Numbered from the stretch's first letter, positions 17,529 through 59,000 are shown. The stretch: 64,000 bases of DNA from Diplonema japonicum (GCA_964019335.1 OZ025728.1:62001-126000), one strand, 5' to 3'. The notes: generated by a model from the sequence alone, not told the origin. A program made the numbers and translations.

Positions 17529-17581
17529 CTACTTAAGTTCCAGCTTGTAAGGTGTCTTGGCAAGATCCCAAACTTTAACCT

Positions 17582-17612
<31 letters not shown>

Positions 17613-19206
17613 CCCCATTTCATCTTCCAACCAAACATACCTTAGGATCGTTAACAGCGGTAGTGGTAAGAATGCTCTTGTTTGTGAAGTAAAGCGTGTT
17701 AAGAGGCCCGAGCCCAGGGTGAGCGTCGGTAATCTCCCCAAGAATGGTGGCCGTCTTGCTGTCGATCCTGTAGAAAACCAACGACGTGTCGGGCGTCGCA
17801 AGAACAAGAATCTTATTGTTAGGCGAGAAGGCCGCATGCGTGAAATACGTGTAGTCCGTGTCTTCAAACGCTTGGAGCAACTTCGGCTCCTCCCTGAGAT
17901 GCCACCTTACGTTAATGTTCCACACACGCACACCACCGTCTTTAGAACACGAAGCCGCACGACTTCCATCTTGCGAGAACCCTACACATGTTGTATTCAG
18001 CTTGTGCCCGGTGAGGGTCATAACGTGTTTCATTGAACCATAATCAACACCACTAGTAAGGGCGCCCTTTGTTCTGATATGTGTTCTGGACACGCAGTAA
18101 CCAAATGTCCCGTCTCGCCAATCCACCGTGTATGTACCGTCAGAGTCTTGTTCCGAGATGACCGCTGGGTAGAAGGATTTGCTTGCTGTGTCAAAAACGT
18201 CCACCTCAATACCCTTTCCAAGCGGGCCTTCGTGTGTTGTTGATTTTGACGCTGACAAAACGGATGTTAGCCGCACGGAGCTTGTCATCGTGGCGGCTAG
18301 GCCGAACAGGTTCCCGGCTGAGGTGAATGTCCATTGTTTCACGCTTCCTTGGGGGATAAGTAATGTGTCAATGGTCGCACCGCGTCTGTCCATGACTGTG
18401 ACGGCACCCTTGTCGTCGAGGAGCATGACGTACCCTCCGCCCTGTCCTACGTGGATTGTCTTTACTGTCATGAAGGGTGAGGGTGCCTCCCAGATCGGGG
18501 TTAGAACGGGTTTCCCCTTTAGATCGACGGCGTAGACCCTTATCTTTGTTTCGTTGTCAAGGAACACGGCGAGGCACTTCCCTAAGGAGTCCAAGGCGCA
18601 TGCTGTGATGGTCGCCTTGTCGATCCTGACCACTTGCCCGTCGTTTGACGTTCCCAGCGTGCTTGCGTCCATTATTTTGTACACTCTGTCGGTCGATCCG
18701 ATAAACATTAATGGGGATTCGGGGTTGGTGCTGATCGCGGTGCAGGCGATTGGTGTTTTAAATCCCTTCACAACCCCGAAGTTTGTGGTGTGGTTCTCTA
18801 CCCTGACTCCATCACGGGGGATGACGTCGAATTCCGGTGCCGCCGCGGGGCGGGAAGGTGCTGCCGGCTCGTGGTGCTGCTTTTGGGTTGAATGCCTCTG
18901 GTGGAACTTCGGTCCGCCCTTCCCGCTTTTTGTCGGCTTCTTGTCTGCGGTTTTTTGCTGAGCGGGTTCTTCGCTGGCTGGCACGGGTTTAGCTGTTGTT
19001 TGTACCTCGACCCTCTCTACTGTACCGTGAGGGTTGACCGCCTTCATCAGTGCACTCCCGATGCCCCACAGTACCGCGTACACCACTCTCAGAGCCACAA
19101 GCCCTGCTAATATTGTGCCCACACCCACGAGCTTAAGCATCGTTGCGTCATCGATATCCCCGATGTCCAGGCCCATGGCCTTGAGCTTGCCTACTAGCTC
19201 GTCCAT
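17529..19206 (-). CDS. Membrane-anchored WD40 protein (TBL2-like) with an inserted Tudor/Agenet-like module; exons 19206-17641 and 17579-17529
   Basis: N-terminal TM helix and WD blades (LTGHKLNTTCVGFSQDGSRAASCSKDGGVRVWN). Splicing out 17580-17640 restores the last blade: AVNDPK|VKVWDLAKTPYKLELK*. Confidence 0.85.
17580..17640 (-). other. 61-nt GT-AG intron with an A30 tract before the acceptor
   Basis: Sequence GTATGTTTGGTTGGAAGATGAAATGGGG-A30-CAG, phase 0. Its removal creates a canonical VKVWD ending. Confidence 0.88.
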
Positions 19207-19414
19207 TTGGTTATATTCTACAGCGGGGGGGTTTATTCTTTTCAAAAAAAAAAAGAGATACTTTTATAAAGAAAGAAAACTGTAACTGTAATGTGAAGGC
19301 GGGGGGGGGGGGGGGGAAATGTCAACAATCAACCCCCCCCCCCCCCCCCCCCCCTCTACCCGAAAAATTATATAAAAAATGTGTTGAGTGTAAACTGTTG
19401 TTTTGTAATAAAAT

Positions 19415-21454
19415 TCAGGTAAACACGTTGTCGCTGCCCACCCACTGCGCCCGCCCACAGAAGGTGTTCTCGTCTCTCAGGACAGACCTCGAGATGTTGA
19501 GGGAGCGCGGGCTCGGGGTAGAGCTGTGCTTCACTAGGTTGACAACATCGAACATGTTGTGCAGCATAGTGGTGTCCGTGACTCTAAGGGTGCCAAGAAC
19601 CGCGAGGTTGTAGTTGTCCCCATACCGGATAGCAACTATGTTTTTGGTGAAGTGGCAGTGGGCCACAGTGGCCGTGTGGGTGGAGGGTGTGTACCCCACT
19701 TCAACTGCCTGTTGGGCATGTGAAATGTTGGTGTTGACAATGGTCACAACCCTCGGCGACGGGATGTGCGACCCGCTGAGAGCGATGCCTTCATGGTGGC
19801 ACCCATCCAAGATGGAGTCTTCTATCCTAAGTAACCCACCAGGGCTTTCTTTTGAAGATGCTGAATCGATGCAATCGTCCTTTGCATCAACAACCACCAG
19901 CCCCTTCACCCCCACCTCACCGCCTCTAAAGTAAAACCCATCATTGTCACCATCCACAAAGTACGGCGTCTCGTTGGGAATGGAACCGATGTACACCTCT
20001 TTCAAGCTTAATGTGCAAAACACGCACTCCCCGCCTTGTTGCACACCTGACACAAATACTTTTTCGAACACGGAGGAGCCTTGCTTCCCTAGACCAAACC
20101 CGGGTCCGTGAAGTTCCATGAGATGCGTGTTTTGTAAGAACAGCTCGCCTACCGACGAAATAAACGGGTGCTCCTTGCGGTGTTTCCCAGTGTTCTTCAG
20201 CCTCGGTTTGACAAACCCCGACCCGGTCGCGATGATCCAGCTGCCTTGCATTTCACCATGAACCTGAAACCCTGAGTAAGGCTCGGTAAGCCTGTTAGGC
20301 ATGATGAGGACGGGAGCTTCCTCAGTCCCTTCTATGATAAGCGTGCCTTTCACAACGATCACAACAGACTTGGAGAGGAGCAACGTGGTGCCTTGAGGAA
20401 TGGTGACGATATCCCCGCTTGGAATTGTTATGTCATTTGTGACCATCACCACACTGTTTAAGGTACCGTGGTAAGGGCCGTCCCATATAACAGTGCGGTC
20501 GGTAGGGTGGAAAGGGGGTTTGGTTAATGTGACAGAAGCGGTTGGGGTTTTGAAACGGTCGAGCGAGGCCGATAGAACACCCTCAATTCCCATCGACAGC
20601 ACGGGGCGGTCGGTGTCGGAGTAGGGCGGGGGCGAGGTGTGGTTCCCGGGGACCACCCAAACCGACCCCACCCCGCGCCGCAACATTATGGTTGTACTCC
20701 GTCCTTGATATTCTCCCGCTACCTTCGTCTCGAGAAACCTGCGTTGAATCTGAAGAGAAAAATCCTCTTTAACCCATGTCCCGTCCACAATTGTATCATG
20801 CGTTTCCACAATAAAAAACACAGGGTAAGGTGTCGAATACGGTAAGAACGACGGTGCCACAGCACGAACCGTTGCATCATTGAAATCACTGTTTACATGT
20901 GCTCTGTTCGATAAGGGTTTGTACAGAGGAACAGCGTACTCAGTGCCCTTCCTCGTCGGGTCTGATACTGCGAAGATGCTGGCCGAGGACAGACACGAGG
21001 AATTGGCTGCGGTTGTCTTCACACACCATCGCCCTGGTTCCTTAAGAGGAATCCCGTTCTCGTTGACGTCGTGCGTACCAATGTTCCCCATAGGGCCTTC
21101 GTACTGTAAGGGCGAATCGGGTAGGAGTACAGACCGCGTGTTGTATATCTTCTTGACACCCTGGACGGGGGTCATCTTGTGGCATCCGTTTAATGTGGGG
21201 GGTTTTGCTATGGGTTCGCTTGGTGCGTCGGTCATTTTTTCTGTTTTTTTTGTGTTTCTCCGGGGATCGTTGTGCTTGTTTGTAGGTCTTTTTATATGCC
21301 GTTTTCTGTGGTCCAGGCTGTTCCCCCGGTCGTTTAAAACCACCGCACCCAGTGCCAGCAGCCCCACACCAATCGCTACTAATGCTACGGCAATGTAGCA
21401 AGCCCGTGCTTGTGTCGCCAGCTTGCTTGGTTTTATGGCATTTTGTATTGTCAT
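19415..21454 (-). CDS. Type II membrane protein with a C-terminal right-handed parallel beta-helix
   Basis: Signal-anchor (YIAVALVAIGVGLLALGAVVL) followed by beta-helix repeats (ITIPSGDIVTIPQGTTL, VKGTLIIEGTEEAPV, DGDNDGFY, KDDCIDS, HEGIALSG). First ATG at 21454. Confidence 0.8.
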   Translation of the reverse strand: MTIQNAIKPSKLATQARACYIAVALVAIGVGLLALGAVVLNDRGNSLDHRKRHIKRPTNKHNDPRRNTKKTEKMTDAPSEPIAKPPTLNGCHKMTPVQGVKKIYNTRSVLLPDSPLQYEGPMGNIGTHDVNENGIPLKEPGRWCVKTTAANSSCLSSASIFAVSDPTRKGTEYAVPLYKPLSNRAHVNSDFNDATVRAVAPSFLPYSTPYPVFFIVETHDTIVDGTWVKEDFSLQIQRRFLETKVAGEYQGRSTTIMLRRGVGSVWVVPGNHTSPPPYSDTDRPVLSMGIEGVLSASLDRFKTPTASVTLTKPPFHPTDRTVIWDGPYHGTLNSVVMVTNDITIPSGDIVTIPQGTTLLLSKSVVIVVKGTLIIEGTEEAPVLIMPNRLTEPYSGFQVHGEMQGSWIIATGSGFVKPRLKNTGKHRKEHPFISSVGELFLQNTHLMELHGPGFGLGKQGSSVFEKVFVSGVQQGGECVFCTLSLKEVYIGSIPNETPYFVDGDNDGFYFRGGEVGVKGLVVVDAKDDCIDSASSKESPGGLLRIEDSILDGCHHEGIALSGSHIPSPRVVTIVNTNISHAQQAVEVGYTPSTHTATVAHCHFTKNIVAIRYGDNYNLAVLGTLRVTDTTMLHNMFDVVNLVKHSSTPSPRSLNISRSVLRDENTFCGRAQWVGSDNVFT

Positions 21455-21653
21455 GACACCTCCCGCCGGCTGTGTGATTTTTCTTTTAAAAAGCAAAAAA
21501 GAAAAAAAAAATATATATCCGTATATTTATTCGGCAGGTCCTTGCAAGAAAGAATGAAAACCGAGCAGGGGTACAGGGGAGAGCGGAGAGAAAAAAGAAG
21601 AAAAAAAAAAAGAAGGAAGAAGCAAAAAAGAAGAGCCGCGGGCCCCTAGAAGA

Positions 21654-21734
21654 AGGGATGGTCAGTACTAGGCATCTCTCAGTTTCGGACATATCTCGCA
21701 ACTCCTCCAGGTGCTGTCCTCTTCAGGCGAGAGG
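21654..21734 (+). repeat. Dispersed repeat C, second copy
   Basis: Closely matches 2661-2741. Confidence 0.85.
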
Positions 21735-22078
21735 CCCTTCAATGGCTCCTACTAGCGTCCCAGCAGGTTTGGAGAGTACCGTTCCCGACCACAAAAAAAA
21801 AAAAGACTTGGAGATAGATAATCAGTCTTTTTTCCTTTTCTTCCTCTTTCTCTTTCTTTCCTTCTTTTTTTTTTTTTTTTTCTTGTTTTTTTTTTTTCTA
21901 ACCATCCTCCACCCTGCTTTCCCCCTTTCTCTATTTAAAGTGGCCCTCTTAACTCTCTTTCTAAATCCAACCAAACCGAAAGGGAAGGCAAAAAAACATA
22001 AAAGAAAAAAAGAAAAAAAAATACACACCCAAGCTAGGAATATTTCTTAGTTTCTCCAAGGGGTAGATCTCCTCAAAA

Positions 22079-24211: not shown

Positions 24212-24305
24212 GGCCTCCTGCTTTTTGAATTATTTTCTTCTTTTTTGGAGAAGAATGCAAATCGGGAAAAGAAAAAAAGAAACTGAAAGATCTAAGTACA
24301 TGTGT

Positions 24306-25493: not shown

Positions 25494-26773
25494 TTCTTTT
25501 TTTTTTTTGTGGTACCTTTGTCATTTTCTTTTGTGATTTTGGAAAAAAAAAAAAAAAAAAGAATTGAAATAAATCTTAAATAATTCGTGTATAAAAAAAA
25601 AGAAAAAAAAAAAAGCTTTTTTTTTAAAAGAAAGAGAGAAAGTTCTTGCTATCAAATGTTTCTTTTTTTTGATTTCTTTTTTTTTTTTTCTTTTGATTCT
25701 TCTTCAAAATCGTCCCGCATGGGAGGAGGGGGGGTCTTTGCTTTACAGAACAGAGTTCAGCCAGAGCAAATATATAGACATTAAAAAAAAAAAAAGGAGA
25801 AAGGCTAAAACAAACACAGAAAACATCGAAGGTGAAGGGGAGCGGCGGATATTCCCCCCTTGTTTTTTTTGACCATTTTCTTTTTTGGGCGGTAGTAAGG
25901 AAACAGAGGTAGCCCAGTAGATTACTTGCATTCAATTATTATTGGAGTAGGAAAAAAAAAGGGGGGGGGGAACAAGAAGAAGAAACAACAAAAGAAAAAA
26001 AGAAGGAAAAAAAACAAAAGACCAAAGAGCAAGATTTGGTAGAGTCACTGCTCGGCGAGGGAAAACTCATCCTCTTGAGCTGCATGTGTGAAGGTTTTTC
26101 TTTTTTTCTTTCCCAATGTTCAATTCAATTCCATTTTCTTTTTTTTTTTTCCATCTTTTCTTTATTCATTTCTTTTTTTCTTTGACAGACCCGGTCGGAA
26201 AAAAAAAAAAAAAAAAAAAACCCGAAAAACCCCCTTTTATGACTACGTTTCAGAAACCCGACAGCTTTCGGCTTTTTCTTTTTTAAAAAAAAAATTCAAA
26301 AAGAAATTAAAATTCAAAATAATTCGAATCATTTTCCAAGGAAAAAAAAAAAAAAAAGGAAAAGTTCGATAAAGTTTAAGTGTGCATGGGGAGTGCCCAC
26401 TAAAACCGCAAACCTGCAAACCCGCAAACCGGGTTTGCAGAAAGAAATAAAAAAAAAAAAAAACAGGACCCCAAGAGATAGAGAAGGAAGAGAGAAAGGG
26501 GGGGGGGGGGGGGGGAGGAAGGACGGGAATTAATCAATACTATTATTCGTAACTGCTGATCTTTATAGGCTTGGCAAAACATGGGACACGTGAGTGTTTT
26601 CTTTCTGTCCCCTTATAAAAAAAAAAATAAAAAAAATAAAAAAATAAAAAAAGAACCCAAGCCTTTGATCTACAGGTGCTAACAGATATGTTTGGTGGAA
26701 TGCTACGACTCTGTTATCTGAACTATAACAAAAACAAAAAAAGAAAATCAGGAAGAATATTTAAAATGATTAA

Positions 26774-28962
26774 CCATTAAAGGACGAAGCGCTAGATATC
26801 TAGCGATCCTAAATTAAAATTTTTGTATAGGCATTTTAAGTACCATAGACCCTTACCCTTGCACAGAATGACCTAGTTCCGCGATTTCCTTTCCATCGAA
26901 AATCACTTTTGGCCCCTAGATTAACCTCCAAAAACACCCTCGAAACCAGTTTTTGGTGGCACGAAAGCTCAGATGAGCAGTACTGATTCAGACGAGTTCG
27001 GGAGTGCCTAAGGGGACATTCTCACTGACGATGGGACCTCATCTAGTGCCAGTAGTGACGAGGAGAGTGAAAATATGCCCTGGGAGAGCGATATTACGCA
27101 GGTTACGCGTAAGAAGTGACAGGGCACAGGGGGGGCAGAAATCACCCTTTTCCCACATGTGCATCAAGGATTTCCAAGCTGTTCATCTCAATGGGGTTTG
27201 TGAAATCTCTTTGCACCGTTTGCAAGTACCACAACCCTGACTTTGACTTCACTGTGGACGATATCTATCAGTTTGTGGCCTTGTGGGTGCTCATGGACAT
27301 CATCCGCAAGGCTGGCATAAAAGATTACTGGCCGACCATTTGTGCCCTCGCCACACCTTTTTTTTGGCAAGTGTAATGAAACGTTACTGCTTTTGCGCTT
27401 ACAGCGGTCGTTGCATTTTGGAGGGTGAAGAGACAGACAGGTTGCAAAAAATAAGATTCTTGCTCCCCTACCTGTCTGCAACACTATTCCCCCGGAGAAT
27501 CGATCATTGATGAGAGTATGATCAAGTCACACGGTAGGCATCGCTTCAGAGTATTCCAGCCTGCAAAGAGGACAGGTGAGGCTGTGCACCGGACAGGATC
27601 TGACACAGGGTCGTGTTCAACTTGTCGATCTACTGTCCGCAGTGCTAATACCATTGTAAAAGCGTGAAAAAGCAATCAAACACAGCACTGTGGACCCCGA
27701 TGTGAGGTATCTCAGCACTTGGCATATTACCTTCCCATTTGGTGAAGGATCGAGGTCATTGTAGGGGGGTGCTGGTGTTTGGGAGCCCTGACTCGCGTGC
27801 AGGATTGGCGTACCACGTGATCACTGCAGAAGCACCAATGCTTATGATGCCAAAAAAGGACAACATGGCGACCAGAATGTCTCGGCGGCGGAGCTCTGCT
27901 TCGAGCTTCTTGTCCTGCAGCTCGAGCGCGACAATGAAAGCTCTTACAACGTTCTCCCGTATCTCCTGCGGTGCCTTCAATGGCGTCTTGCTTGACATGA
28001 AGTGAACGTCGTGCTCAGTCTGAAAGCGCACCCCACGTGACTTGTCGATGCCACTATTCGTGTCCACCTGGTGGATGGCTCGGCATCGGTAGCGTTCCCC
28101 TTGTACCCCGGCATCGATAACTTCTATACTGGCGTTACCCTTGTACAACAGATGTGGGAATCAGGTTTGCGGTGGAAACAATCCGAGGAAAGTCCAGTCA
28201 ATGGTGGTAACAATCCGAAGAAAACCGCCAGAATGTACCTAATCTTGCCCCAGTGAAGAAGCAAGTAGGCCCAGGCAGGCCCAAAAACGGGTTCGCGATG
28301 AGCGACAACAGCTTTTCGACTGTTATGCGCCAGTCCGGAAACAACCGCCCGACAAGCACCCGTTCTGAAATGGGGACCGAGGGGCCCAGGGAAGATGCCA
28401 GGCGCGACTTCACCAAAGGTCACTGGTCCAAAAAACTGGATGCAGCAAGACAATGCACACACCACATGCGTGTTTTGGGGGTCCGAGTGCAAACTATCTT
28501 CATCTGCAAGGCTTGTAACGTGCATCTGTGCCCAGCTTGCTTTGCGGACTATCACGAACCAGTGGTTTACCCACCCCAATCTACCCCCTCTGGAGGCCCG
28601 GCCACACCGAAGAAACGCCTAAGGTACCAGCGTCTCCAAACACATACCCTTCTCCCCAGGTCGTCATCTGAGCCAAGTCCCAAAAGCAAAACCCCCCCTA
28701 GCACCCCGAGGCCCAAGCGAAAAAAGTAAGGAAGTGTCTAACCTATGGGTGGGGTTTTACAATAAATTTCACTTCAATTCCTTATTCTATTCACTTCCCA
28801 GGGCCTTTGAGGGGCGTCTGGGGGTGTTTTTTGTCCCTCCTGGGTGATGTATTTTCTTTTACACAAGCGTCGTTCTATGGTTGCATGCTCGAGGATGTTT
28901 TAATTTTAGAAAATAAAAAAGTCGATGGTGACCTTTGCCCAAAAACCCCCGTCCTTTAATGG
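26774..28962 (+). mobile_element. Defective piggyBac transposon (2189 bp) with a pseudogenised transposase
   Basis: TTAA at 26770-26773 and 28963-28966, with 13-bp TIRs CCATTAAAGGACG / CGTCCTTTAATGG. Fragments include IDESMIK (~27505), IDNFYTGVTL (~28113) and the Cys-rich tail QCTHH..TIFICKACNVHLCPACFADYH. There are multiple frameshifts and stops. Confidence 0.93.
27764..28100. mobile_element. 337-bp insertion nested in the piggyBac transposase, flanked by TTGTA direct repeats
   Basis: It splits LVKDRGHC | GIDNFYT. TTGTA occurs at 27759-27763 and 28101-28105. The ends GGGGGGTGCT / AGCGTTCCCC form an imperfect inverted repeat. Confidence 0.6.
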
Positions 28963-29017
28963 TTAAACGAGTATTTAGCCGCCCTCTTCTGCCCACCATC
29001 TTCTGCATATCCCTCTT

Positions 29018-35009: not shown

Positions 35010-35046
<37 letters not shown>

Positions 35047-35501: not shown

Positions 35502-36686
35502 ACTGGCCGTTGGCGTGCCGGATGTTGAAAATCTGGAAATCTGGAGAAAATCTAACGCAACGACATTGTTTTGTTTAGACAAGTCAAAGGCTTTTTCTTT
35601 TTGAAAAACGTGTCTTAGAAAAGAGAACCTGCAGAACTGTGACAGGATCACCTAAGAAAATCTGAGAGAAAAGAAAAGAAAAGGAAAGAAAAAAAAAGGG
35701 GGGAAGAAACAAAAAGATTGAACTAAATTAATTAAGGAGAGGTGTCTAGCCTACCCCTTCCTCGCTCTCGACCTTTTGGAAAAAAAAAAAGAAGAACTGG
35801 CTGTCGTACGCGCCGGTTAGAGAAAACCTGAATTTTAAAGAATATTTGTCCTTTTTTTTTTTCTTTTTTTTCATCGAGGGGCAAAAAAAAAAAAAATAAA
35901 AAAAATATAATCCACTTTTTTCTTTTTTTTTTTTTTTTTTGCCATTTTCTTTTTTTTTTTCTAAAAAGAAGGGGGAGGGGAGAAGAAGAAGAAAAAAAAA
36001 AAAGAAAAAAAAAAGAGAGAGAAAAACAGTTATAGACGAGTCAGATGGATGCAGTGCCTTCCAATTCACCTATGCTTTCTCCTCTTTTCTTTTCTTTTCT
36101 TCTTGTATGTATGTAACGGTAAGGGGGGATTTTATTTGTTACTTTTTCCTTTTCCACACACAGTCCACAAAAAGATCGCATTTACAGACTCAAGGTTTAT
36201 ATCCGGGAACACTGCCATAAAAAACCGCAAGAGCGAAACAAAGCAGGTCCGCTTCTGGAGCATTGCTTTCATCCCGATCGAAGCCGTGAGCGTCTTGGTT
36301 TTCAATCCCATCAGCTTGTCGTGCGTGGGGTGGGTGGCGAAACTGCGCCTCCTGGAGAAGCCAATAGCCGCCTTTCCGTGCCCTGCATGCTTTATTTTTA
36401 AGATGAGGGCCTTGATTTTGCGAGAAAAAAAAAAAAAAAAAAAAAAAAAAAAGCACGCAGAGTTCGCCTTGGGTTTTCGCCGCTTTTTCTTTTTTTTTTT
36501 TTTTTTTAAATTCTTCACCCCACCCCCACACCACTGCAACCATCAGGTGATTCAATACAAAATTTCAACAGAAAAAAAAAAAAAGAAAGAAAAAATATTT
36601 AAGACACGCGTAGTGTGGCAACGGGGCGGGGGGAGGGAGGGGGGGGACAACACATTACTCATCCCCTTCATTTTTTCCCCCCCCTT

Positions 36687-38108
36687 CTAATTTCCATGCG
36701 GCGAAAACACACCAGGACTCACATGCTCCAAAGGAGTTGTGTCACATATCGTGAAGGAATCGCTCGACCCGTCTATCCATTCATAAACCGTCATCCCGGT
36801 CGTCAACAAAATAAACAGAATACCGCAAACCCCGATCGAAAGATCAATGTACTCCTGCGTCCGTGTTTCGGCCACCGCTTTATAATGAAAAAGAGCCGGG
36901 AAGACGAACGCAAGCGGGCACATTGTCACACCACCCAGAAGCGAGACAAAATTGCCCAAATTCGAAGACCCCGCGAGAGCAACCAACCCCAAGAATATGA
37001 CTGTCAACGACCTTGCGGCATTGATGGTCCATGTTTGTGCTTTATCGATCCGCAACGAGGACTCTATAATCTGGTAAGCAGGGAAGGCCTGCAACGGGAA
37101 GGTTAGTGTGACGGCCGCACTATAGAAAATCTTTGCAACCTGCGACAGATTCTCGTCCTCGGGCATCGCAAGAAGAAGATTTGTGTTCACCGAATCACCC
37201 CCTCGGGAAATGTACCCTGTCAAGGCGAACACAGCAAACAGCGTACAGCACATCATGATCGCAGCCCATAACAAAGGTATAAACTTCTCAGGGTTCTTCA
37301 TCTCACCATGGATCGGCATCATAAGCCCGATGCCTTCAAAGGTTAACACAGCGGTCCCGAAGAACATGGGAAACTTGCTTTCCAACACAGACGGTGTTGC
37401 ATTATTTGACGAGGTCGCCACGGTGTAGCTGTTCTTAACTACAACATACATCATGGCCGAAAGGATGAACACGTCTGCGATAATCGCGAAAAAGGAAATA
37501 TTTCTGATGTTTCTAAGCCACGACAAGGGGAGCTGAAGCACTACCTGTATTGCTATCATGATGCCAAGGGGTATCTCGGTAGCCCAATGTTCGCACCCCG
37601 CTAGTTGTGCAATGGCGTCCTTCATTGATGAAGCAACAAAGATGAAATACATTGTTACCAGACCAAGCTGCGAGCCTACCAAAGAAATGTCAACGAGAAT
37701 CTTCGCGGGCCGGCCGTAGATTGCCTCTCCAAGCTCGGAGAAATTCGCGATTTTAAGTTTCAGTTTTGTTTCGATTAAAAGGCTCACACAGTAAGCATTT
37801 CCCATTGCGCACAGAAACAGTGCCACCACAGACACTATAACCCCACCGTCAGCAAAACCCTTTGCCAGGTATATGTGCGCTGGGCCAACGAAAGCTTTGA
37901 CAAGGGTCATGAATGTTGCCCTGTCGCCGGTCTTTTTGCGTTTTCCTGTTGATATTAACGAGGCTGCTTCTTCGTCTGCAGCATCTTCAAAGGTGGAGCG
38001 GCGTCCACCGAAGTTTAGAATTGAATTGGCCAGGCTTGACACCTCCGTGTCGCCTCCTTTGCTGTTCTTCTCGTCTTCCCATACATTTTGCACTTGTGAA
38101 GACATCAT
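36687..38108 (-). CDS. Amino acid/auxin permease (AAAP; SLC36/Avt3-like) transporter
   Basis: Motifs TLVKAFVG, GFADGG, SQLG..MYFIFVA, FFGTAVLTFEGIG and TFPLQAFP, with about 11 hydrophobic segments. ATG at 38108. Confidence 0.93.
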   Translation of the reverse strand: MMSSQVQNVWEDEKNSKGGDTEVSSLANSILNFGGRRSTFEDAADEEAASLISTGKRKKTGDRATFMTLVKAFVGPAHIYLAKGFADGGVIVSVVALFLCAMGNAYCVSLLIETKLKLKIANFSELGEAIYGRPAKILVDISLVGSQLGLVTMYFIFVASSMKDAIAQLAGCEHWATEIPLGIMIAIQVVLQLPLSWLRNIRNISFFAIIADVFILSAMMYVVVKNSYTVATSSNNATPSVLESKFPMFFGTAVLTFEGIGLMMPIHGEMKNPEKFIPLLWAAIMMCCTLFAVFALTGYISRGGDSVNTNLLLAMPEDENLSQVAKIFYSAAVTLTFPLQAFPAYQIIESSLRIDKAQTWTINAARSLTVIFLGLVALAGSSNLGNFVSLLGGVTMCPLAFVFPALFHYKAVAETRTQEYIDLSIGVCGILFILLTTGMTVYEWIDGSSDSFTICDTTPLEHVSPGVFSPHGN

Positions 38109-38867: not shown

Positions 38868-40719
38868 CTATTCAAGGGAGCCACACGGCCTGTACAGCCT
38901 ACGGGAGGAGGGCAGAGCGTACATCATGGCAATGAAGGAGTCAGGGATCTGGTCCTTGCTGGTGGAGTGCCGGCTGCATTCTTCCTTCGCAAGACTTCTG
39001 AACATTGCTGCCTTGTCCCCGCCATGCTTCTCCCTCTCGGCGTCTGCAGTATTGAAGAGTGTCTCCAGCTTCCAATCGGAGAGGTAGTGGCGGTGGTTCT
39101 TGCGGTGTCCCTTCTTCGCACCCAGCACGGTCCCTTCCCTTGCTGTTGCTGTGCTCGTTCCCTCGTTGAGGCACGTGGAGGAGCACCCATCACCGTCAAC
39201 AGTGTTCCCGTCATCGCATTCTTCAGAACCGCTTGTCCCTTCACCGTCCACTGTCCCGTCCCCACAGCATGTCAGCTTCGGTGCAGACCCAGGCACCACC
39301 AGGTCCCACCTCCCGCTTGCTGGGCTCCCGATAAGGTCAGCAAGGTTGTCCGTGTCATAGCTGTAGCTGTTCCCTTCAGGCAGATCGGTGATGAGGTGCA
39401 TGTCACGGATAGTGACGGGGCTGCCGAAGTACACAGGGGTCCTATCCCCATCCACGTCAAAGGGCAGTGTGGCGTCGAGTTCCACTTCGGCAATAGGCGG
39501 CAGGTTGTTCGTGTGGGTGCTGGGCGTGTACATGGCAGGGGTGATCGAGGCCTTCGGTGTCTCATCGTAGCCGTGGTAGTCCTGCCACAAGGCCCACATT
39601 CTGTCAACGTTCGCGTGGTGCACGAAGAATAGTGGGTCGTCTGGGCTCAGGCCGGACCCCATGTGGCCGCTGACGAAGCGGTGCGGGGAGGCATGTCCCC
39701 TCGAGGGTGGGGTGGAAGACAGCGAAGTCTGTGTTTGAAGTGATGATCGCCGACATGTCCATCGACCCTGTGAAGCCCGCCCCGCCCCACTGCCTCCATA
39801 GGCACTTATCGTTCGACGCGGTCCAGCCTGCTGCCAGGCCGTCGGTCACGCAGTAGTCAGGCCACCCTGTCGTCCCCTGCATGGTCCCGAAGGTCTTTGC
39901 ACGGAAGGGAGTGCTGAACTGCTCCTCCGCGTCGTCCCTCTCCCAGTCCCAGTAGGGCACCGTTACGCACTCGAACCCAGCGATGGAGCGCAGGGCGTTC
40001 TCGTACCCGATCACGAACCAACGGTGCCAAGGGAGGAAGGCGGAGGTCGAGTGGGCGTAATTCCCGAGGTGCACGTGCATCAGTGAGAAGTCATGGTAGT
40101 CAGAGGTCTTCTGCGTCTTGAACGCCTGCACCGCTGCGATGTAGTGGTCCCTCTCAGCGCATGACAGCATCGACCACCCCTTCCTTACACGAGATCCGCA
40201 AACTGGACCTGGCTCGGGGGTAGGCTCGGGAGTGGGTTCGGGTGTCGGTGAAGGGGTGGGCTCAGGAGTCGGTGCAGGAGTGGGTTCAGGGGTGGGTGAA
40301 GGCGTGGGCTCAGGTGTAGGGGTCGGTGCAGGAGTCGGTTCAGGAGTGGGGGCAGGGGTAGGTTCAGGAGTCGGTCCCGGAGTGGGTGCGGGGGTCGGTT
40401 CGGGCGTCGGCTCAGGCGTTGGTTCGGGAGTAGGTACAGTGGGTGGTTCGGGGGTGGGAACAGGAGTGAGCGCAGAAGGGACATCGGTCTCGTCATACCC
40501 GCCACCGCACGTGCAGCACGCCTCGTCTGCAACCCACTCGTTTCTGTACGAGTTCCCCAACCACCAACACCTCCAAGACTTCGCCCCGTACCAATCACAG
40601 GTACGCGACGACCCCCTGTTGTCATGCCACACCGCCTCGTCAGAGAGCGTCTTGTCGACACAGGCACCATCTGCAGCTAGCAGGGAGCCCAGCAAAAGCC
40701 CGGTAAGCAAGATCTTCAT
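38868..40719 (-). pseudogene. Secreted tyrosinase-like (type-3 copper) protein broken by one frameshift near 39695; pseudogene or assembly error
   Basis: Frame 1 has a signal peptide, a Cys module, a PT linker, RVRKGW, CuA H..AH..FLPWHR and VPYWDW. Frame 2 continues with Cu[27 protein letters not shown] and a Myxococcus-type Cys repeat (CGDG..EECDDGN..GDGCSSTC). Confidence 0.8.
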
Positions 40720-41444: not shown

Positions 41445-41483
<39 letters not shown>

Positions 41484-44181: not shown

Positions 44182-46327
44182 TTACCATTTCGGTAATTTC
44201 GAATTCGAAATAAGATTGGCATCACTTTCTATGTAGGGCAACCCGGCTTGGCGCTTCTCTGCGGCTTGCTCCATTTTCCGTTTATTCGCGTACTGCATGT
44301 ATTTTCTTTCCTCTTTTTTCCCCCCCCTTTCCATTACACACCTTTTCCTTCTCTTTATTCAAGATTCTATCAGGGTCTAACACCTCTACCCGTGGCAAGA
44401 AGGAAGATGCCTCACTTGTCGTCTTTTTGGCCATGTCGGACAGAGTCCCAAATCTTGCAAGGTTTTTCGACCAACCGCCTTTGTACACCTGTTTCTTCTC
44501 ATGATAGTAATATGTCCCGGGGCCTTCTTTAAGTCCTTGGTGCCAATGGCCTTCGTATCTGTCGCCGTTGGCCATGTATTGGGTGGCCCAGCCCTCTACT
44601 GTGTCCCATTTCCACTGCCCTTCGATTTTGTCGCCGTTAGCTAGGAACACCTTTCCGACGGCTGCACGAAGACCATCTTCGAAGTACCCCTCGTATATGT
44701 CACCATTAGGGTACCAGTGAACGCCTTTACCGTGGCGTTTGTCTCGTCTCCACTCCCCTTTGTAGATGCGGACCCATTCGGTTAGCTCTGATTTGCGTTT
44801 CCACAGTGTGCCGGTCCCCTCCCGCATTCCTTCTTTCCACTCTCCTTCGTACCTGGTTAGCCGGGTCAGTTGTTCCCCCCAACCTTCTTTCAAACCGTTC
44901 TTCCACTGTCCCTTGTACGTGTTCCCCCCGGACGTTCCTTTAGCGCCCTTTGTCGGAACGTAGATTTTGTTCCGCGACCCGTGGATCTTCGAGTCCAGCA
45001 CGCTTTGCTTCCATTTCTGATGGTGTTTCGGGCTTGTCGACACCGCTGTAGGAAGCTTGTCTACTTTCGAGTAATGTTGCGGTTGACCGTCTGGTGACGG
45101 GCATCCGGTTAGCAATGACGTGTATTTTTCTTGCAGCCTGCAGACCATTTCTTCGATTTCCGTCAAAGGATGCCCGAGCGCCAGGTCGGTTTCAGGGAGC
45201 TTTGCTTCAGCCGCCTTGAGCTGCTTCCACACCTGCCCCGCCTCTGTCACCTGTGTTTGCCGTTTGAGCGTTGTCGTGATCTGCTGCGCGTTCTGAAGGT
45301 TCTCAAGGGTGTCGGTGGTCTCGTGGTAGTCAAGGGTGCTAACGGTTGATAACATAACTGTCGCTACCGTTCCACTAAGCGGGCCGGTTAGAACCTGTGT
45401 GAGCTTGGACTCCGTGAAGAGAGATTCTGACATTTCAGGAAGCTTGTCTTGAAGACCGTTGAGCTCGGTGGAGTTCCCTGCTTGGGCAAGCTTTCTTCTT
45501 CTCAGCTCAACGGCGTGAAGAATAGCGGATCCGAGGATTGTGATGGACTTGTTGACGGAAGCCCCGTGTCTGAGGACTTCACCTGAAGCGCCCTTCTGCC
45601 CAACTCTGTCGGGCCCTTTCAAATGCCCGAAGAGTAAGGAAGATGTGACAACATGGTTCGGGCGGTCGGTGTCCTCCATGATGATGTTTAGCTTGACGAA
45701 TCCGTGCCACCTTGCCCCGCGTTCTTCCGACAGCTTGATTCTGTTTATGTTGCCGTGCATGACATAGTCGTCGAGCTCTGTCCATGATGTGATGTCCACT
45801 TCTGTGAGACCCGGTATGTACGTCCCACCGTAACCGTCTTTTCGGACATTGAAAACTCCCGTATTTTGAAGAGATAGAGCGTCCTTGATCTCGGTGTTTG
45901 ACATTTCCCAGTAGGAGAGGGAGACGCGGAATTGAAGGTTTTGTGGTGCATTTTCGATGCGGGTTAACAGTTCTTTTGTGGTGAGCTGGATCAGGCCGGG
46001 TTCTTGGTCCGATCCGAAGAAAGTGTGGGTTTTTCCGGTGGCGGCGGGGCCGTAAGCTAGACAGCACGCGCTGTACCCGTTCATGATTAGTTCCACCATC
46101 TCCATGCCGACGGTTTGGAAGATGTCAACCTGAGTCGCGTCGTCGGGGAAGAAATAGTCATAGTTGTACAGCAGCCCCTCCTTGCTTTCGGGATAGAACG
46201 CAATCAGCCTGTCCCCGTCGATCTTCAACATTACCTGTACCTTCGACTTCTCATCTGCGCTCAATGGTTTCTCCCTAATCGCGATTCTAAGGTGGTCCCA
46301 TTCCTCCAGCTGCATTGGCTGCACCAT
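44182..46327 (-). CDS. Atypical kinesin motor domain fused to C-terminal MORN repeats; exons 46327-44342 and 44292-44182
   Basis: Motifs YNYDYFF..TQ, GYSACCLAYGPAATGKTHT, VSLSYWE, VNKSI and ESKLTQVL, followed by YxGxW MORN repeats. Splicing gives KEK|YANKRKMEQAAEKRQAGLPYIESDANLISNSKLPKW*. Confidence 0.88.
44293..44341 (-). other. 49-nt purine-rich GT-AG intron with paired ends
   Basis: Sequence GTGTGTAATGGAAAGGGGGGGGAAAAAAGAGGAAAGAAAATACATGCAG, phase 0. Splicing opens a 36-codon coding-like last exon. Confidence 0.75.
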
Positions 46328-46458
46328 TTTTTTTTTTTTTTCTTCTTTCCCCCCCCCCCACACTCCTCCTTCCCCCCTCTCCTCCTTTTTTTTTTGATTT
46401 TTTTTTTTTTTGGTTCGAAAAAAAAAAATTTTTTTTTTTTGATTTTTTTTTTTTTTTT

Positions 46459-47364
46459 TTACTGTTTCACCATGTTCTGTCGCGCCGTCATTGCGGCCTC
46501 CAGTGCCATACATGCTGCGGTTTGCAGCGGGAAGAACGAACCGTTTCTAGGCCGCAATTTCAAGGTTGTTGCGCAAGCCGGCATGATGTGCGACGTCAGC
46601 TTCAAACCGGGGGACTCAGGGTGCGTGCCACACAGCATGACCCACGGCTTCCCGTCCATACCTGTTCCAGGGGAAGGCCCCGCTTCAGAGAACCGGTATA
46701 TAGTTGTTGCCTTCCTGTTCTGGGTGGTGTTGTAGAGGCCTGTGAAGTGGAAGTCCTCAGCGGTATTCAAAGCGAAGTCCACAAGATTATCAACATGGTA
46801 CAGCTTCACCTTCTCGACATAACCCCGCGAGGCGTACGAGATCACACCGTAGGAGTAAGGGGTTGCCCTGTTGCCCCCACCCATGATGATTCCGTTAACC
46901 CCGTAAGCAGCGCCTACATGGATCAGCTCACCAAGTTCTGTTGTTGTCACTCCTGTCAAATCGATGCCTAAGTAGATACGTGAGGAACCATCGGCTAAAG
47001 GCGTTTCTGGTATGATTTTGAGCATGGGGTTAGGGAGTTCCTCGTCGCACTCCATGATGATACCTTCGTGGTAGGCCGAAAGGTTTCCGCTTGTCAGTTC
47101 GCCTTCCCTCACGTACGGGTCTAAAAGCCTCTTGGCCAGGCCTTCCATCGCTGCCCTGCTGTGATAAATTACAGGGGGTTTCGGTTGGGTGATGGACTCC
47201 ACCACAGCGCTGCCCTGGCTGCCCTCCAGGACATGGATCTTTTCCCCCCGCCCCGCCAGCACCGCTTCCCGCACGGGGTTTCCACCAAATATCGCCTTAT
47301 CGGCCTCAATCACAGCCACTGTTGTTTGCCGTGCTTGTATCGCTCGTTTCACAGCTGTTCGCAT

Positions 47365-47367
<3 letters not shown>
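46459..47367 (-). CDS. Divergent SpoU/TrmH (SPOUT) RNA methyltransferase-like protein, probably mitochondrial
   Basis: IFGGNPVREAV, HEGII, ELGELIHVGAAYGV (cf. NLGAIxRSAxAFG), ASRG, ESPGL and FPLQTAACMAL (cf. SLNVSVA). The N-terminus is Arg-rich and resembles a mitochondrial presequence. Confidence 0.7.
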
Positions 47368-47397
<30 letters not shown>

Positions 47398-49929: not shown

Positions 49930-50500
49930 GAAAAGAAAAGATAAAGGAGGCCAGTCGGTGCGTCCTAAAGAAACAAACATGGGAAATAGTGAGAGAGCTA
50001 AAAAAAAAAAAAAAAAAATGAAAATGGGAGTAATCAAAGTAAGACCATTGATAGGACGGAGCGAATCAAGAAGGAAAAAAAAAAAGAAAAAAAAAAGAAA
50101 TTCGAATTATCTCAGTTTCGGACGAATCTCGCTTTTCGGTATGTGGCGTATTGAAGGGCCGGGTACCACCGCGAAGGATCGACCCCTTCCTTCGAGCGGT
50201 TGCCGTTCCCCATAATGATATATTTCTTTTTTTTTTTCTCTTCTCTTTTTTTTTTTTTTTCTTCTTTTTCTTTTCGTCACGAATCATTCTGTGAATACCG
50301 ACAAGTAAGAGTTAAAGGATGCCAGTTGGTGGCACCCTAAAAAAAGAAACAAACACGGGAGAAAAGTGAGAGAGCCAAAAAAAAAAAAAAAAAAAAAAAA
50401 AAACTCATAGTAAAAAGACAATCCCATTTTGATGACAGCCTCGAAATAAAGATAAGAACGAGAGAATCATAGTTAGGGGTTTTTTTTTGGAGCGAATCAA
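49930..50500 (+). repeat. Degenerate local tandem duplication (unit ~370-430 bp)
   Basis: TAAAGGA.GCCAGT.GGTG..CCTAAA..GAAACAAACA.GGGA..AGTGAGAGAGC at ~49942-49998 and ~50313-50375. GGAGCGAATCAA at ~50058 and ~50489. Confidence 0.7.
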
Positions 50501-50541
50501 AAAAAAAAAAAAAAAAAAAAAAGTTCTCTAAGAAGCCCACT

Positions 50542-52596: not shown

Positions 52597-52982
52597 GTCA
52601 ATATGTTTCCTTTATCTATAAGATGGTGGGGTATGAAATATGTGATGTTCAAAAAAAAAAAAAAAAAAAAAAAAAACACTGTAAGAGAAAAAAAAAAGGG
52701 GGGGAAGGAGGAACAAAAGGAATATAAAAAAAAAAAAGAACCGTCTGGCGAAGGCAAACCACCTTTTTTTTTTTTTTTTCTTCTTCCTCCCTCGCTTTTT
52801 TTTTTTTTTCTTTAGCGAGAGAGATATATAAAAAAAAAAAAAAAGAAGCTAGTGTTCTTTTGTTTTGTTTTTTCTTTGTGCACTATTCGTAGTTCTTTTT
52901 TTTTTTTTTTATATTTTTCTTTTTAAAACATTACAAAAACAGGCTGTTTTTCCGTTCATCATAAATTTTAAAAAAAAAAGAA

Positions 52983-53080
52983 TTGTTTGTGCGCACGAGC
53001 GGAATTTTACCTAATAAAATAGCTCATTACGCTGCCATCAACTAGTTTTTAGTCTCGACAATAATATTGTTAAAACAAAA
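52983..53080 (+). repeat. Dispersed repeat A, 98 bp identical to 5881-5978
   Basis: Base-for-base match on manual comparison. Confidence 0.92.
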
Positions 53081-53353
53081 TATTATTTACCCATAAAGGA
53101 CCCAAGAACTGATACATCAGCCACAGAAAACAAAAGAATCAACATCGCCGTATCCTCTGAAATAAAACGCTCCTGGAAAATCCTCGGGAAAAAAAAAAAA
53201 AAAAAAATAGGAGAAGAAAAAGGTTGAACGTTCGCGGGATATGCCGGCATGCCACCTCGCCGCCACTGCAGCAAGCGGGGGAGGGTCCAAATACGGGTTT
53301 TAAACAAAAAGAGGGGAAAAAAAAAACGAGGTTCACCTGGTTTGGGTAAAACA

Positions 53354-53392
<39 letters not shown>

Positions 53393-53395
53393 CTC

Positions 53396-54478: not shown

Positions 54479-55409
54479 TTTATTTTTATTTTGTTGTTGT
54501 TGTTGTTGTGTGTTCGGCTGTATGTTTTTTTTTTTTTTTTTTTGTTTCAGTGAATTTTTAAAAAAAAAAAAAAGTGGGGGAAAAAGAGGTGGGGAGGGGA
54601 AAAAAAAAAGTGGGAAATATGGGTGGGGGGATAATAGAGGAGAAAATAATTGGGGTGGTGTGCGTGTGTTGGGATTTTCGGAAAAAAAAAAAATAATAAA
54701 ATAAAATAAAAATAACGTAAGAGGGCGCTGTTGTTACATCCCCCTCCCCTCGTTTTACTTCCTGTTTGAAAGGGGGGAGGAGAGAAAAAAAAAAAAAAAA
54801 AGCAGAAAACTTGTTTTTGCGACCCTTCCATCTTTGTGTTTTTTTTTTTTTTTCTTCTTTTTTTTTTTTGTGCGCACTTTTATCAATGTCTTCTCAAATA
54901 GATTTCTTTTTCGGACCTTTTTGAAAAACTCTTCTTTTTTTTCTCGTTTCCATTTAAGTCCAAAATGCGGTAAATATGCTACCGACTAAAGAGAAGAAAA
55001 TGATTATGGTAATGTGAAGAAGAAAAAAAAAAAAAAAAAAAAAAAAAAGGCGTGCAATTTTAGAAAATATTTTGTTTTCCTTGTTGTGGATGGGAAAAGA
55101 ACAGGGCAAAAAGTTACTCTTTTTTTTTCCCCCCCCCAGTTCGCCATGAGACAAAAAAAAATACAAAAAGAAGAAAAAAAAAAAAGACCCCAAACCCCCC
55201 TGGAACAGATTACCCCATTTTGTTTTTTACCGATTATTTGTGTGAAAAAAAAAAAAGGAAAGCAACAAACCGAAAAGAAATATAAAAGAGTTCTTTTTTT
55301 TTTTAAAAAATCAGACACATCTTGCTGGCTTGCCAAGCCCACCAGTTTTAAGGAGGCCTCTGTGGTGGTGCCAGAAAAAAAAGAGGGGAAAAAGGGGAAG
55401 GAACCAAAA

Positions 55410-55444
<35 letters not shown>

Positions 55445-55997
55445 CTTTTTTTTTTCTTTTTTTTTTTTCCAGCGCGATTGTGCCAGGTGAATATACTAAC
55501 TTTTGCACCCAATCTTTTTTTTTTTTTTTCATCCTCCTTTTTCTTTTCATGCACTAACGAAAAAAATTCACTGTGATATCACAACAGGAAAGGGATGTTG
55601 TAAAAATTAATTAAAAGAAAATTCACTATGATAGAACGAAGTGGTTAGCAACGGCCCGCGAGAAAATATAGATGACCGACCTCGTTGCTGACCTGCCGTT
55701 GCTTCTTCAACTTCTTCTAGGTGGGTATTCGTAACCTTCGAAGTTAAATTTTGCTCTGCCCTTGATCCACCGGATCACCGCCAGAAAAAGTCGTGTTGGT
55801 GTGTATACTCCCTTTTACGGCTCAGAACAGAAAAGGCATCCCTTCCAAAAAAAAAAAAAAAAAGAGAAAAGTGGAGGGGGGGATTAAAAAAAAAAATGAT
55901 GAATTCTTTTGGGGAAGGGGAAATGTGCACAAAGGGGGGGGGGGGGGGGGGGAAACCTTAAAAACCAGAAACAGAACAATTTTTTTTTTTGAACCTT

Positions 55998-56015
55998 TTA
56001 GTTTTTGCCACGGCG

Positions 56016-56051
<36 letters not shown>

Positions 56052-59000
56052 CCTCCTTCATACCCTCGCAACGTCTTAATCTTTGTGTGTGCCTGAGCTC
56101 TGGGGGGAACATAAACAGCGGACTTTGGAGGCTGAGCCTGAACACTGGGTAGCAACTGCGTCAACGCAGGCCCACCACCTGAGGAAGAGCTTTGAACACT
56201 GACATTAGAAGCGATGGACGAATTAGGACACATTGACTCAATGCTCGACTGCTGCCTCTCAAGCTTCTCAAGTTTCTGCAAAATCGTAACAACGGGCTGC
56301 GGGACTGGACGGCTCACGGGGTCCAGATCCCAAAGCTTGTCATGGATAACATTCCACAACTCCATAGATATAGGCGTGTGTAGGTGCGTTGGCTGTCTCG
56401 GCCTCTGTATAATTTTTTTTTTTTCTAAAAAAAAAAAAAAAAAAAAAAAAATCCATACCCTCTTCGCCTTTAACTCAGTCAATGCATGTTCCTTCCACCC
56501 CTCCCTCCCCCGTTCACAATCGTCAAAGTACGGCTCACCCTGTAACACCTCATACAAAAGGCACCCTAAAGACCATGAATCGTGGGCCTTCGTCGCCCGT
56601 CTTTCAGAATGCTGGAGTAGAATCACTTCCGGTGGTGCCCATGGAATGCAAATCGCCTGGATGGGGTCGCGCTCCTTCGCAAGAAGACCAACATCAGCGA
56701 GCTTGTAACAGTCGATACCAGTGGGATTCGGCACCGTGAGCAATACGTTTCGAGCCGCAACATCCAAATGAACCACACCTTGGGAATGCAAGTGGGACAA
56801 TGCTTGCGCCATAGATACCCCAACTTGAATGGCTATTGTAAGCCGTTCATCGGCACCAGGGGGGAGCTGCTCAAGCTTTGATTTCAACGTGCCACCATGA
56901 CAGAATTCAGTAATCATGTACAGCGTGCCATCTGGCATCGATTCCGACCAACCATAACAAGCTAGGATTCTGTTGTATCTAAGCCCGAGGAGTACTTCTA
57001 TCTCTTTGACGAATTTCTTTTTCGAGTCTCGGGTTCGGTTTGTCAGCTCCTTTACGGCAACCTCGTCGTGAACGTCTTGCTTCTCGCATTTGTAAACTTT
57101 TCCGAACCCGCCCTCGCCGACTTTTTTCCAGTCTGACGACAGGGTGTCGAAACCGATAAAAAATTCGCTGGGCAGCCCCGCTGCGTAATTCGCATCTTCA
57201 GATGTACACGACGTTGGTTCGTCGTCAGCGTGGGCGTTTTTCAAATCGTAACCGGTGTATCGGGAATAGACGGAGTCGAATGCGTCTTCTTGCGGGGTGA
57301 TGGGGTCGTAGGGATTTGCTTCACCTTCTTCGCTGAGCGGCATTGTGTTATCACGCCCGTTAACGTCTCCTGGTGGAGCGACTTGAGGAGAGACTACAAC
57401 GTCGAAATTGAACAAACCGATCATAGGGTGGAGGTGGGTAATGTCGTCAGGTAAGTCCCACGTCGCGACAAGACGTTCGTTTATGTAGAACGTTATGAGA
57501 CGTGCGTCAAAATCAGCTTGCGAGCCGATTATATCGCCTTGGCCTATTACCGTAGCCGGGATGGATGGGACGGATCCCTTTTTCGTGGTTACTTCTTGGC
57601 CGTCGTATGAGATTGCTTCTTCCCAACCTTTGCTGATCTTGGCGTTGAGCCAGCCTATTTTGCATGTCGACGTGTTTCGTGTTCCTTTTAAAACCTCGAT
57701 CTCGAAGTAGGCTTGCCATTCCCCATAACGCCGTTTAGTCCTCGCGATGCCCCACTTCCCTGATGTCGACACAAGTTCCGTAGCCCCGAAAGAAGTCCCG
57801 TTTCGTTTAACTTTTTTGGTGAGTTCCCTTGCTTCCCAGTCGGTGTAGCATGGTTGTGACAGTAATTCACGTTCAGACAGCTCTCGGAGTTGGTTTTCCG
57901 TCCAGTTTCGAGTTTTTTGAAGCTCGATTTGAGCCTCTGTTTCGACGAGGTGTCGGGCGCGGGATTCTTCAGAGTTCAGCCCGTTCCGCTGGCACACTAT
58001 TTTGAAATCGGATTCCGGGGCTGCCTGCACCTCGCCGTCAAGAATTTGATACAAAGATTCAACACCCCCACCCATCGAGGTTTTGAACAGTGTAACGATT
58101 GACGTCAACAACCCATAAATAAGCGGCGCGAAACTATAAATATCAATTTGAGGAGATCGTGCCAAAGGCAACCTTGTCATTTTCAACGTTTTGCAAAGCT
58201 CCGTACACGTCAGGCAGACTTCATAGTTAGGTTCCGTGGGGCCGCGGTAACCCGCCGCCACGGTTTGTTCCACCCATTGTATTTGAAACTTGATCTTCCC
58301 GTTTCTCCACGTCCCGCAGTGCTCGGTTTTAACAAGCTGGGTACGCTCGGGGTGTTTGTGCTTTCGCCTAATGCACTCAAATTGTATATCGCTTGCGACA
58401 ACGGGAGGGCAGAGATTCCCCTTAGAGTTCACAAGCATGCTCTGCAACCAGTCTAGAACTTCCTTATCAGAAACGTTGTCCTCTGAGCACAGCCTGTGCG
58501 TTTCCACACGAACCCGGAAGTCTCTCGAGCAGGGCGAGTTGTGGTTAAGAACGTCATATCGAAGTTTTTTAAGCGTGGGGTAGTCAACATCACGGAGGAG
58601 CTTTCTGATGATTATGTTTTCAGATCTACCGTCGTTTGAAATGTACGCTGTGTGGGTGCGTTTGTCGCCTTTTTTGATGTAGATTTGCCATCTGCGGGAC
58701 TTTTCGATGTTTTGAGGTGGGGTTTGCTTCATGAAATTGGCGTTTTCAAGACAAGATATCAGCTCGGGGATACGATCTGGAGGGATAGTTGTGTCGAAGC
58801 GGCGTTTGCACCCTTTCGCGGCTAGGTCTTCCCGTGTGTTAGGATGCGCGTGTCGCAGGGTCCCCACTGCGAGTTTCATTCTTGTGTGCATTAGCCCTAC
58901 TTCGTGGTGCCGCATGAAGTACTTGGAAATTTCTTTAACACCTTTTGCAACGATGTAGTCCCCGTTGTCGCTTTCCATAACCACTGGAGGTGAGTAACAG

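What the first reader, a model, noticed from the sequence alone, without database searches (positions are those of the whole stretch)
17580..56458. A class of 47-61 nt GT-AG introns with A-rich or purine-rich 3' ends, all near gene 3' ends
Seen: four small introns (17580-17640, 44293-44341, 56017-56063, 56405-56458) have GTRTG donors and 3' ends of A30-CAG, purine-rich-CAG, A34-G and A12-TTATACAG. Two restore recognisable motifs (WD40 VKVWD and the kinase C-lobe), and all lie in the last ~15% of their CDS. Known: U2-type acceptors usually have a pyrimidine tract, euglenozoan trans-splicing depends on one, and intron-poor genomes usually keep 5'-biased introns. Inference: cis-introns here avoid an acceptor-proximal pyrimidine tract so they are not mistaken for trans-splice or polyadenylation signals. 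That would be a separate cis-versus-trans splicing code.
Basis: partly seen in the sequence, partly recalled or inferred. Interest (0 to 1): 0.78.

Follow-up and report, generated by a model that had tools for sequence, protein, structure and literature searches.

The report
A-rich end-of-gene introns in Diplonema
Four short introns of the marine flagellate Diplonema japonicum are real and end in runs of A instead of the usual U/C tract, a quirk already published for this species; that all four sit in the last 12% of their genes is a small-sample lead I did not find in print, and the idea that the A-runs keep them from being mistaken for trans-splice sites remains untested.

Summary
The window is Diplonema japonicum; all four segments lie on the minus strand and are real GT-AG introns. 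Removing 17580-17640, and 56405-56458 plus 56017-56063, gives proteins identical to D. japonicum transcriptome proteins. A contig from a related strain skips exactly 44293-44341. The A-rich 3' end is published: Thakur et al. [quoted passage not shown] These are ordinary introns of this species, not a separate class. Two points are left. (1) Positions are 0.88-0.99 of the CDS (chance 0.001-0.006, three genes), and two are shared with unnamed orthologues. Pyrimidine-tract strength steering cis versus trans splicing has precedent in Schistosoma. Verdict: real, mostly known, with a testable 3'-position lead.

The parts
17580..17640 (-). Intron 1, 61 nt, phase 0, WD40 gene; G|GTATG ... A30-CAG; at 0.968 of CDS
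   Evidence: Spliced translation identical to P0001, D. japonicum transcriptome protein; ENA orthologues P0003 and P0005 diverge at the same codon
17529..19206 (-). WD40-repeat gene, 538 aa, two exons
44293..44341 (-). Intron 2, 49 nt, phase 0, kinesin-MORN gene; G|GTGTG ... purine-rich-ATGCAG; at 0.947 of CDS
   Evidence: X1 contig skips exactly these 49 nt; ENA orthologues P0083, P0086, P0087 diverge at the same codon, D. papillatum P0084 continues in register
44182..46327 (-). Kinesin motor plus MORN gene, 698 aa predicted when spliced
56405..56458 (-). Intron 4, 54 nt, phase 0, in frame without a stop, kinase gene; G|GTATGGA-T25-AG-A12-TTATACAG; at 0.883 of CDS; the internal T25-AG is not used in the matching transcript protein
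   Evidence: 54-nt cut matches P0014, 34-nt cut does not; predicted end-to-end hairpin, z=-3.8
56017..56063 (-). Intron 3, 47 nt, phase 2, kinase gene; G|GTATG ... A34-G; at 0.994 of CDS
   Evidence: D. ambulator orthologue P0015 ends similarly to the spliced form
55998..59164 (-). SPRY-like plus protein kinase gene, 1021 aa, three exons

Best explanation
These are four ordinary short GT-AG introns of Diplonema japonicum, likely removed by its U2-type spliceosome, whose pyrimidine tract has been replaced by A-runs as in most introns of this species. Inferred mechanism: U1 pairs with the G|GTRTG donor, the intron is recognised across its roughly 50 nt, an A of the purine run serves as branch point, and the AG closing the run is joined. 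An upstream donor, not a separate acceptor code, likely decides cis over trans. At least two positions appear older than the species, while the A-runs likely grew later by slippage in homopolymer-rich non-coding DNA, with at most modest selection against free U-tracts that would attract the spliced leader. The 3' placement likely reflects survival of terminal introns during intron loss.
For: Shown: splicing of all four. Published: 98.33% GT-AG, median 41 nt, (G)/GTATG, A most abundant in the tract, U2AF1/2 and U2-type snRNAs present in D. japonicum (PMC12621601). Five unnamed ENA orthologue ORF calls (3 kinesin, 2 WD40) break from the spliced form at the same codon with Val (compatible with GT), and their read-through residues hold 0-1 Lys, so they have no long A-run in frame. 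A-runs are general next to coding DNA here: the last 20 nt before 19 ATGs are 65% A, intron interiors 60% A; 14 of 19 ATGs have an A7+ run within 60 nt; 94 A8+ and 147 T8+ runs on the sense strand. Rare loss of 3'-terminal introns has precedent in Cryptococcus (PMC2395259 passages).
Against: Branch points are not mapped and no intron has a YTRAY motif, so the branch step is inference. Purine-rich acceptors exceed the local background (about 0.003), so pure drift is not enough. Loss sparing terminal introns does not by itself explain why no 5' introns are seen. One ENA orthologue (P0006) lacks the late WD40 read-through and the N-terminus. Slippage as the source of the A-runs was not tested.
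Confidence: 0.55

Rival explanations
1. Selected cis-versus-trans code: U-rich tracts mark spliced-leader acceptors and trigger coupled polyadenylation, so D. japonicum cis introns were driven to A-rich or hairpin-masked acceptors, and introns persist mainly near gene ends where accidental leader capture costs least.
For: T-rich zone at -60..-140 of start codons (43-49% T at -61..-100); tract in 17 of 19 windows at -110..-56 versus 1 of 4 introns, p=0.02; first AG after the tract: mean pyrimidine 0.62 versus 0.11 in introns, p=0.004. The one intron with a U tract is predicted to fold it into a hairpin with its own A-run (0 of 200 shuffles as stable). In Schistosoma, introns whose acceptors take the leader have longer tracts (PMC5832876).
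Against: No leader site is mapped, and the first-AG rule is circular because it selects for a tract. By the last-AG rule there is no contrast (p=0.33); one of three fixed windows gave p=0.20. Introns are not significantly tract-poor against random non-coding DNA (p=0.23). Other trans-splicing diplonemids keep C-rich tracts and kinetoplastid cis introns all have tracts. A strings resemble trypanosome cleavage sites.
Confidence: 0.22
2. Shared A-type acceptor: D. japonicum uses one acceptor layout for both reactions (distant U tract optional, then A-run, then AG), read by an altered U2AF or A-binding factor.
For: In 11 of the 12 genes with both runs, the last A7+ run lies closer to the ATG than the last T7+ run; 10 of 19 have an A-run ending at or within 8 nt of an AG. 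Upstream of the NMO, kinesin and WSC genes the first AG after the tract follows an A-run (3 of 19 with 25% or less pyrimidine), the same layout as intron 4.
Against: These A-runs may simply be 5' UTR. A-runs are followed by G about as often on the antisense strand (81 of 147) as on the sense strand (58 of 94). U2AF1/2 are present; their specificity was not examined.
Confidence: 0.18
3. The 3' placement is a small-sample or detection effect and the genome has no positional bias.
For: Only three genes; two introns share a gene. Eleven of the 19 non-LINE CDSs have no exact transcript-protein match, so in-frame introns without homopolymers could be missed. The paper validated eight introns in three genes, so multi-intron genes exist.
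Against: Chance 0.0016 (gene level, relative position) to 0.0056 (within 360 nt of the stop). Six further CDSs match transcriptome-source proteins exactly without splicing. Of 44 G|GTRTG sites in 20 CDSs, none before 0.85 of the span is followed by a homopolymer longer than 7 nt. Only 23 coding-like islands (3.5 kb) lie outside annotated genes, none with a minus-strand open frame over 80 aa.
Confidence: 0.45

Closest known systems
Canonical introns of Diplonema japonicum (Thakur et al. 2025, PMC12621601)
   Same: Same species; GT-AG, G/GTATG donor, about 40-60 nt, A as the main base where the pyrimidine tract should be, mostly CAG end, no YTRAY branch motif in most.
   Different: Nothing in kind. 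In the parts I read (1-5 of 8; supplements not readable) the paper does not report position along the CDS and does not compare cis with spliced-leader acceptors.
Cis/trans competition at intron acceptors in Schistosoma mansoni (PMC5832876)
   Same: Cis and spliced-leader trans-splicing coexist; acceptors that take the leader have more U and longer tracts.
   Different: There tracts differ in degree and leader use is measured; here the tract is replaced by A and leader sites are unmapped.
Kinetoplastid cis introns and trans-splice signals (PMC11613528, PMC6597758)
   Same: Polycistronic same-strand genes; in trypanosomatids the tract directs the leader acceptor and upstream polyadenylation.
   Different: Kinetoplastids keep three intron-containing genes, and their introns all have pyrimidine tracts.
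Non-canonical end-paired introns of euglenids and Hemistasiidae (PMC12621601)
   Same: Introns 2 and 4 are predicted to pair their 5' end with the bases before the AG.
   Different: These keep GT-AG and a U1-type donor; introns 1 and 3 show no end pairing; the paper finds lower end pairing in the canonical species.

Membership tests
U2-type spliceosomal introns | GT-AG ends with precise removal from mRNA | tested here: met
U2-type spliceosomal introns | Donor resembling the species' U1-type consensus (G/GTATG) | tested here: met
   3 of 4 G|GTATG, 1 G|GTGTG; consensus; pairing to U1 itself not computed
U2-type spliceosomal introns | Branch-point adenosine and lariat | not testable with these tools
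   No YTRAY in 4 of 4; only 13.9% of D. japonicum introns have it; needs lariat reads
U2-type spliceosomal introns | Pyrimidine tract next to the acceptor (usual, not obligatory) | tested here: not met
   Pyrimidine 0-20% in the 20 nt before AG in 4 of 4; published as the species norm
D. japonicum canonical A-tract introns (PMC12621601) | Species identity, short length, A-rich 3' end | tested here: met
Euglenid/hemistasiid non-canonical introns | Non-GT-AG ends | tested here: not met
   All GT-AG
Euglenid/hemistasiid non-canonical introns | Stem joining the intron ends | tested here: inconclusive
   2 of 4 predicted end-paired (z=-3.8 each), 2 not; no covariation data
Introner-type mobile introns | Near-identical copies at new positions | tested here: not met
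   The four differ beyond donor and A-run; two positions appear shared with orthologues; window only, no genome held
Cis-versus-trans acceptor code | Mapped leader acceptors differ in composition from cis acceptors | tested here: inconclusive
   p=0.004 or 0.33 by the AG assumed; no leader reads available

The most novel reading that the evidence does not exclude
D. japonicum keeps its introns mainly at the far 3' end of genes, the reverse of the 5' bias usual in intron-poor genomes, and has rewritten their acceptors (A-runs, or U tracts locked in hairpins) so that free U tracts are reserved for spliced-leader addition: a two-letter code separating cis from trans splicing on one spliceosome.
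Probability: 0.2. Interest if true: 0.72.

Novelty: already known. Interest (0 to 1): 0.35.

Why it matters
The A-rich acceptor itself is published. What would matter is the remainder: how one spliceosome tells cis from trans acceptors on polycistronic RNA is an open question, and D. japonicum, with about 10,000 mapped introns and public genome and RNA data, allows a direct test. A genome-wide 3' intron bias would also bear on how kinetoplastids lost almost all introns; PMC11613528 states that direction of loss could not be determined in extant kinetoplastids.

Tried and rejected
No whole genome was held, so nothing genome-wide was computed. No RNA holder was listed with certainty; all runs laid were contigs, so leader sites, starts and levels could not be seen. 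In one search the joint table was filled by repeats and cut (58 rows not shown), so introns 3 and 4 were not seen there either way. A metagenome scan with the kinesin alignment gave 10 loci, best 52-54% identical; none was used, and my check of L001 printed nothing. The 34-nt alternative of intron 4 was rejected. Shorter cuts of intron 2 (29, 31, 36 nt) were rejected. Two further late donors, 36712 (amino-acid transporter) and 8377 (adenylate cyclase), stay unresolved: no same-species protein was found and the homologue tails end where the unspliced transporter does. The tyrosinase break near 39698 looks like a frameshift, not an intron. Eight of 14 unspliced ORFs looked up had no exact match, which is uninformative because the collection also lacked the D. 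japonicum kinesin. Rfam found nothing in the window. Supplement 2 of PMC10161547 holds gene orientations, not exon coordinates. Paper searches for a 3' bias or cis/trans comparison in diplonemids; none listed such a study, but Additional file 1 of PMC10161547 (section on intron splicing) and the supplements of PMC12621601 could not be read and may bear on both points. Earlier scan notes held nothing on these introns.

Full report
Organism and setting. The long ORFs of the window lie almost all on the minus strand, separated by homopolymer-rich gaps. The WD40 ORF hits an EukProt Trinity protein at 100% identity, labelled Diplonema japonicum, and a D. papillatum protein at 47%. The kinase hit P0014 is also D. 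japonicum. D. papillatum genes are co-transcribed in same-strand clusters and essentially all mRNAs carry a spliced leader (PMC10161547, passages and section 7); I assume the same here.

The introns are real. All four have GT..AG ends on the minus strand at the stated places. Removing 17580-17640 gives P0001 exactly. Removing 56405-56458 and 56017-56063 gives P0014 exactly; the unspliced form, the single-intron form and a 34-nt cut at the internal T25-AG do not. For 44293-44341 no same-species protein was found, but a contig of run X1, about 95% identical and guessed to be RNA, skips exactly these 49 nt, while X2-X4 hold them. If X1 is DNA, this would mean precise intron loss in that strain; either way the borders are right.

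The A-rich end is known. Thakur et al. [quoted passage not shown] Other diplonemids there prefer C. The four introns are therefore typical of the species. In the window their 3' ends are more purine-rich than background (about 0.003).

Position. The introns lie at 0.968, 0.947, 0.883 and 0.994 of their CDSs. Under a uniform model the chance is 0.0002 per intron, 0.0016 per gene, or 0.001-0.0056 by distance to the stop; this was computed after seeing the pattern, on three genes. Six other CDSs match transcriptome-source proteins exactly without splicing (6 of 14 looked up). Of 44 G|GTRTG sites in 20 CDSs none before 0.85 is followed by a long homopolymer, and little coding-like DNA lies outside the annotated genes. 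In-frame introns without homopolymers in the 11 unmatched CDSs are not excluded. Three unnamed ENA kinesin ORF calls and two WD40 calls run uninterrupted to the same codon and then diverge, starting with Val; P0003 and P0086 rejoin after 24 and 50 residues ending in Gln. I infer the same introns in other diplonemids, without in-frame A-runs (0-1 Lys). The search's length filter favours such uninterrupted calls, and P0006 is a counter-example. My nine paper searches listed no study of intron position in diplonemids, but two key supplements were unreadable. That intron-poor genomes are usually 5'-biased is recalled; rare loss of 3'-terminal introns is reported for Cryptococcus (PMC2395259 passages).

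Cis versus trans. Upstream of 19 start codons (my picks; 8 confirmed by exact protein matches) there is a T-rich zone at about -60 to -140 and an A-rich zone in the last 20 nt, 65% A. Taking the first AG after the nearest pyrimidine tract as leader acceptor (the trypanosome rule, PMC6597758 passages) gives a contrast with the introns (pyrimidine 0.62 versus 0.11, p=0.004), but the rule selects for it; taking the last AG gives none (0.20, p=0.33). Fixed 55-nt windows hold a tract in 12, 17 and 16 of 19 genes against 1 of 4 introns (p=0.20, 0.02, 0.04); against random non-coding windows (56%) the introns are unremarkable (p=0.23). Intron 4 carries a T25-AG. It cannot be the cis acceptor of the matching transcript, and the only As upstream of it lie within 7 nt of the donor. 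The whole intron is predicted to fold end to end, U-run against A-run (-12 kcal/mol, 0 of 200 shuffles); intron 2 has a 7-pair end stem (2 of 200); introns 1 and 3 have none. This is a lead for masking, from four folds and without covariation. Kinetoplastid cis introns all have tracts (PMC11613528 passages). In S. mansoni, introns whose acceptors take the leader have more U and longer tracts (PMC5832876 passages and part 1 of 2 of section 8), so tract-based sorting has precedent; the same paper cites the classical view that an upstream donor blocks leader addition and shows exceptions.

Mechanism. Shown: borders and removal. From the literature: a U2-type spliceosome in this species. Inferred: donor-led recognition of a short intron, branching in the A-run, later growth of A-runs by slippage on old intron positions, modest selection against free U tracts, survival of terminal introns. 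I put this at 0.55, a selected cis/trans code at 0.22 and a shared A-type acceptor at 0.18. Separately, the chance that the 3' placement vanishes genome-wide is about 0.45.

Other papers seen: PMC13598402 (term search, no 'intron' in the main text) and bioRxiv 10.64898/2026.01.29.702485 (one passage); neither bears on the two open points.

Verdict. Observation confirmed; headline feature already known; position bias and cis/trans contrast are open and cheap to test with public reads. Interest 0.35.

Noticed in passing
window 26770-28966: Decayed DNA transposon with 17-nt perfect terminal inverted repeats beginning TTAA and a weak transposase zinc-finger hit, below cut-off; piggyBac-like by recalled features.
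   Followed up: partly
window 6947-8275: Second element with 22-nt inverted repeats containing TTAA and a broken plus-strand ORF ending in a Cys-rich stretch; no Pfam hit.
   Followed up: partly
window 12042-14810: Minus-strand ORF with an RVT_1 reverse transcriptase domain, likely a LINE.
   Followed up: no
window 24212-24305 and 46328-46458: Very short gaps between stop and next start: 94 nt (DnaJ to AlkB-like) and 131 nt (gene at 46459-47367 to kinesin), leaving little room for a 3' UTR, polyadenylation and a leader acceptor.
   Followed up: no
window 39670-39720: Tyrosinase gene split across two frames near 39698 with no intron-like sequence; frameshift or assembly error.
   Followed up: partly
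window 36666-36712 and 8377: Two more G|GTRTG donors at 0.98-0.99 of their ORFs, the first followed by a purine-rich 47-nt stretch ending in AG; possible further 3' introns, unresolved.
   Followed up: partly
window about 52893-53080 and 55515-55675: Short stretches in bins with hundreds of times the neighbouring contig depth in the runs laid: high-copy repeats; no Rfam match.
   Followed up: no
window 44293-44341 and 56405-56458: Predicted pairing of the donor with bases just before the AG in two of four introns.
   Followed up: partly
window 59433-59581: Tandem repeat of a 6-nt unit (ATATCC on the minus strand) just after the stop of the gene at 59631-60416.
   Followed up: no
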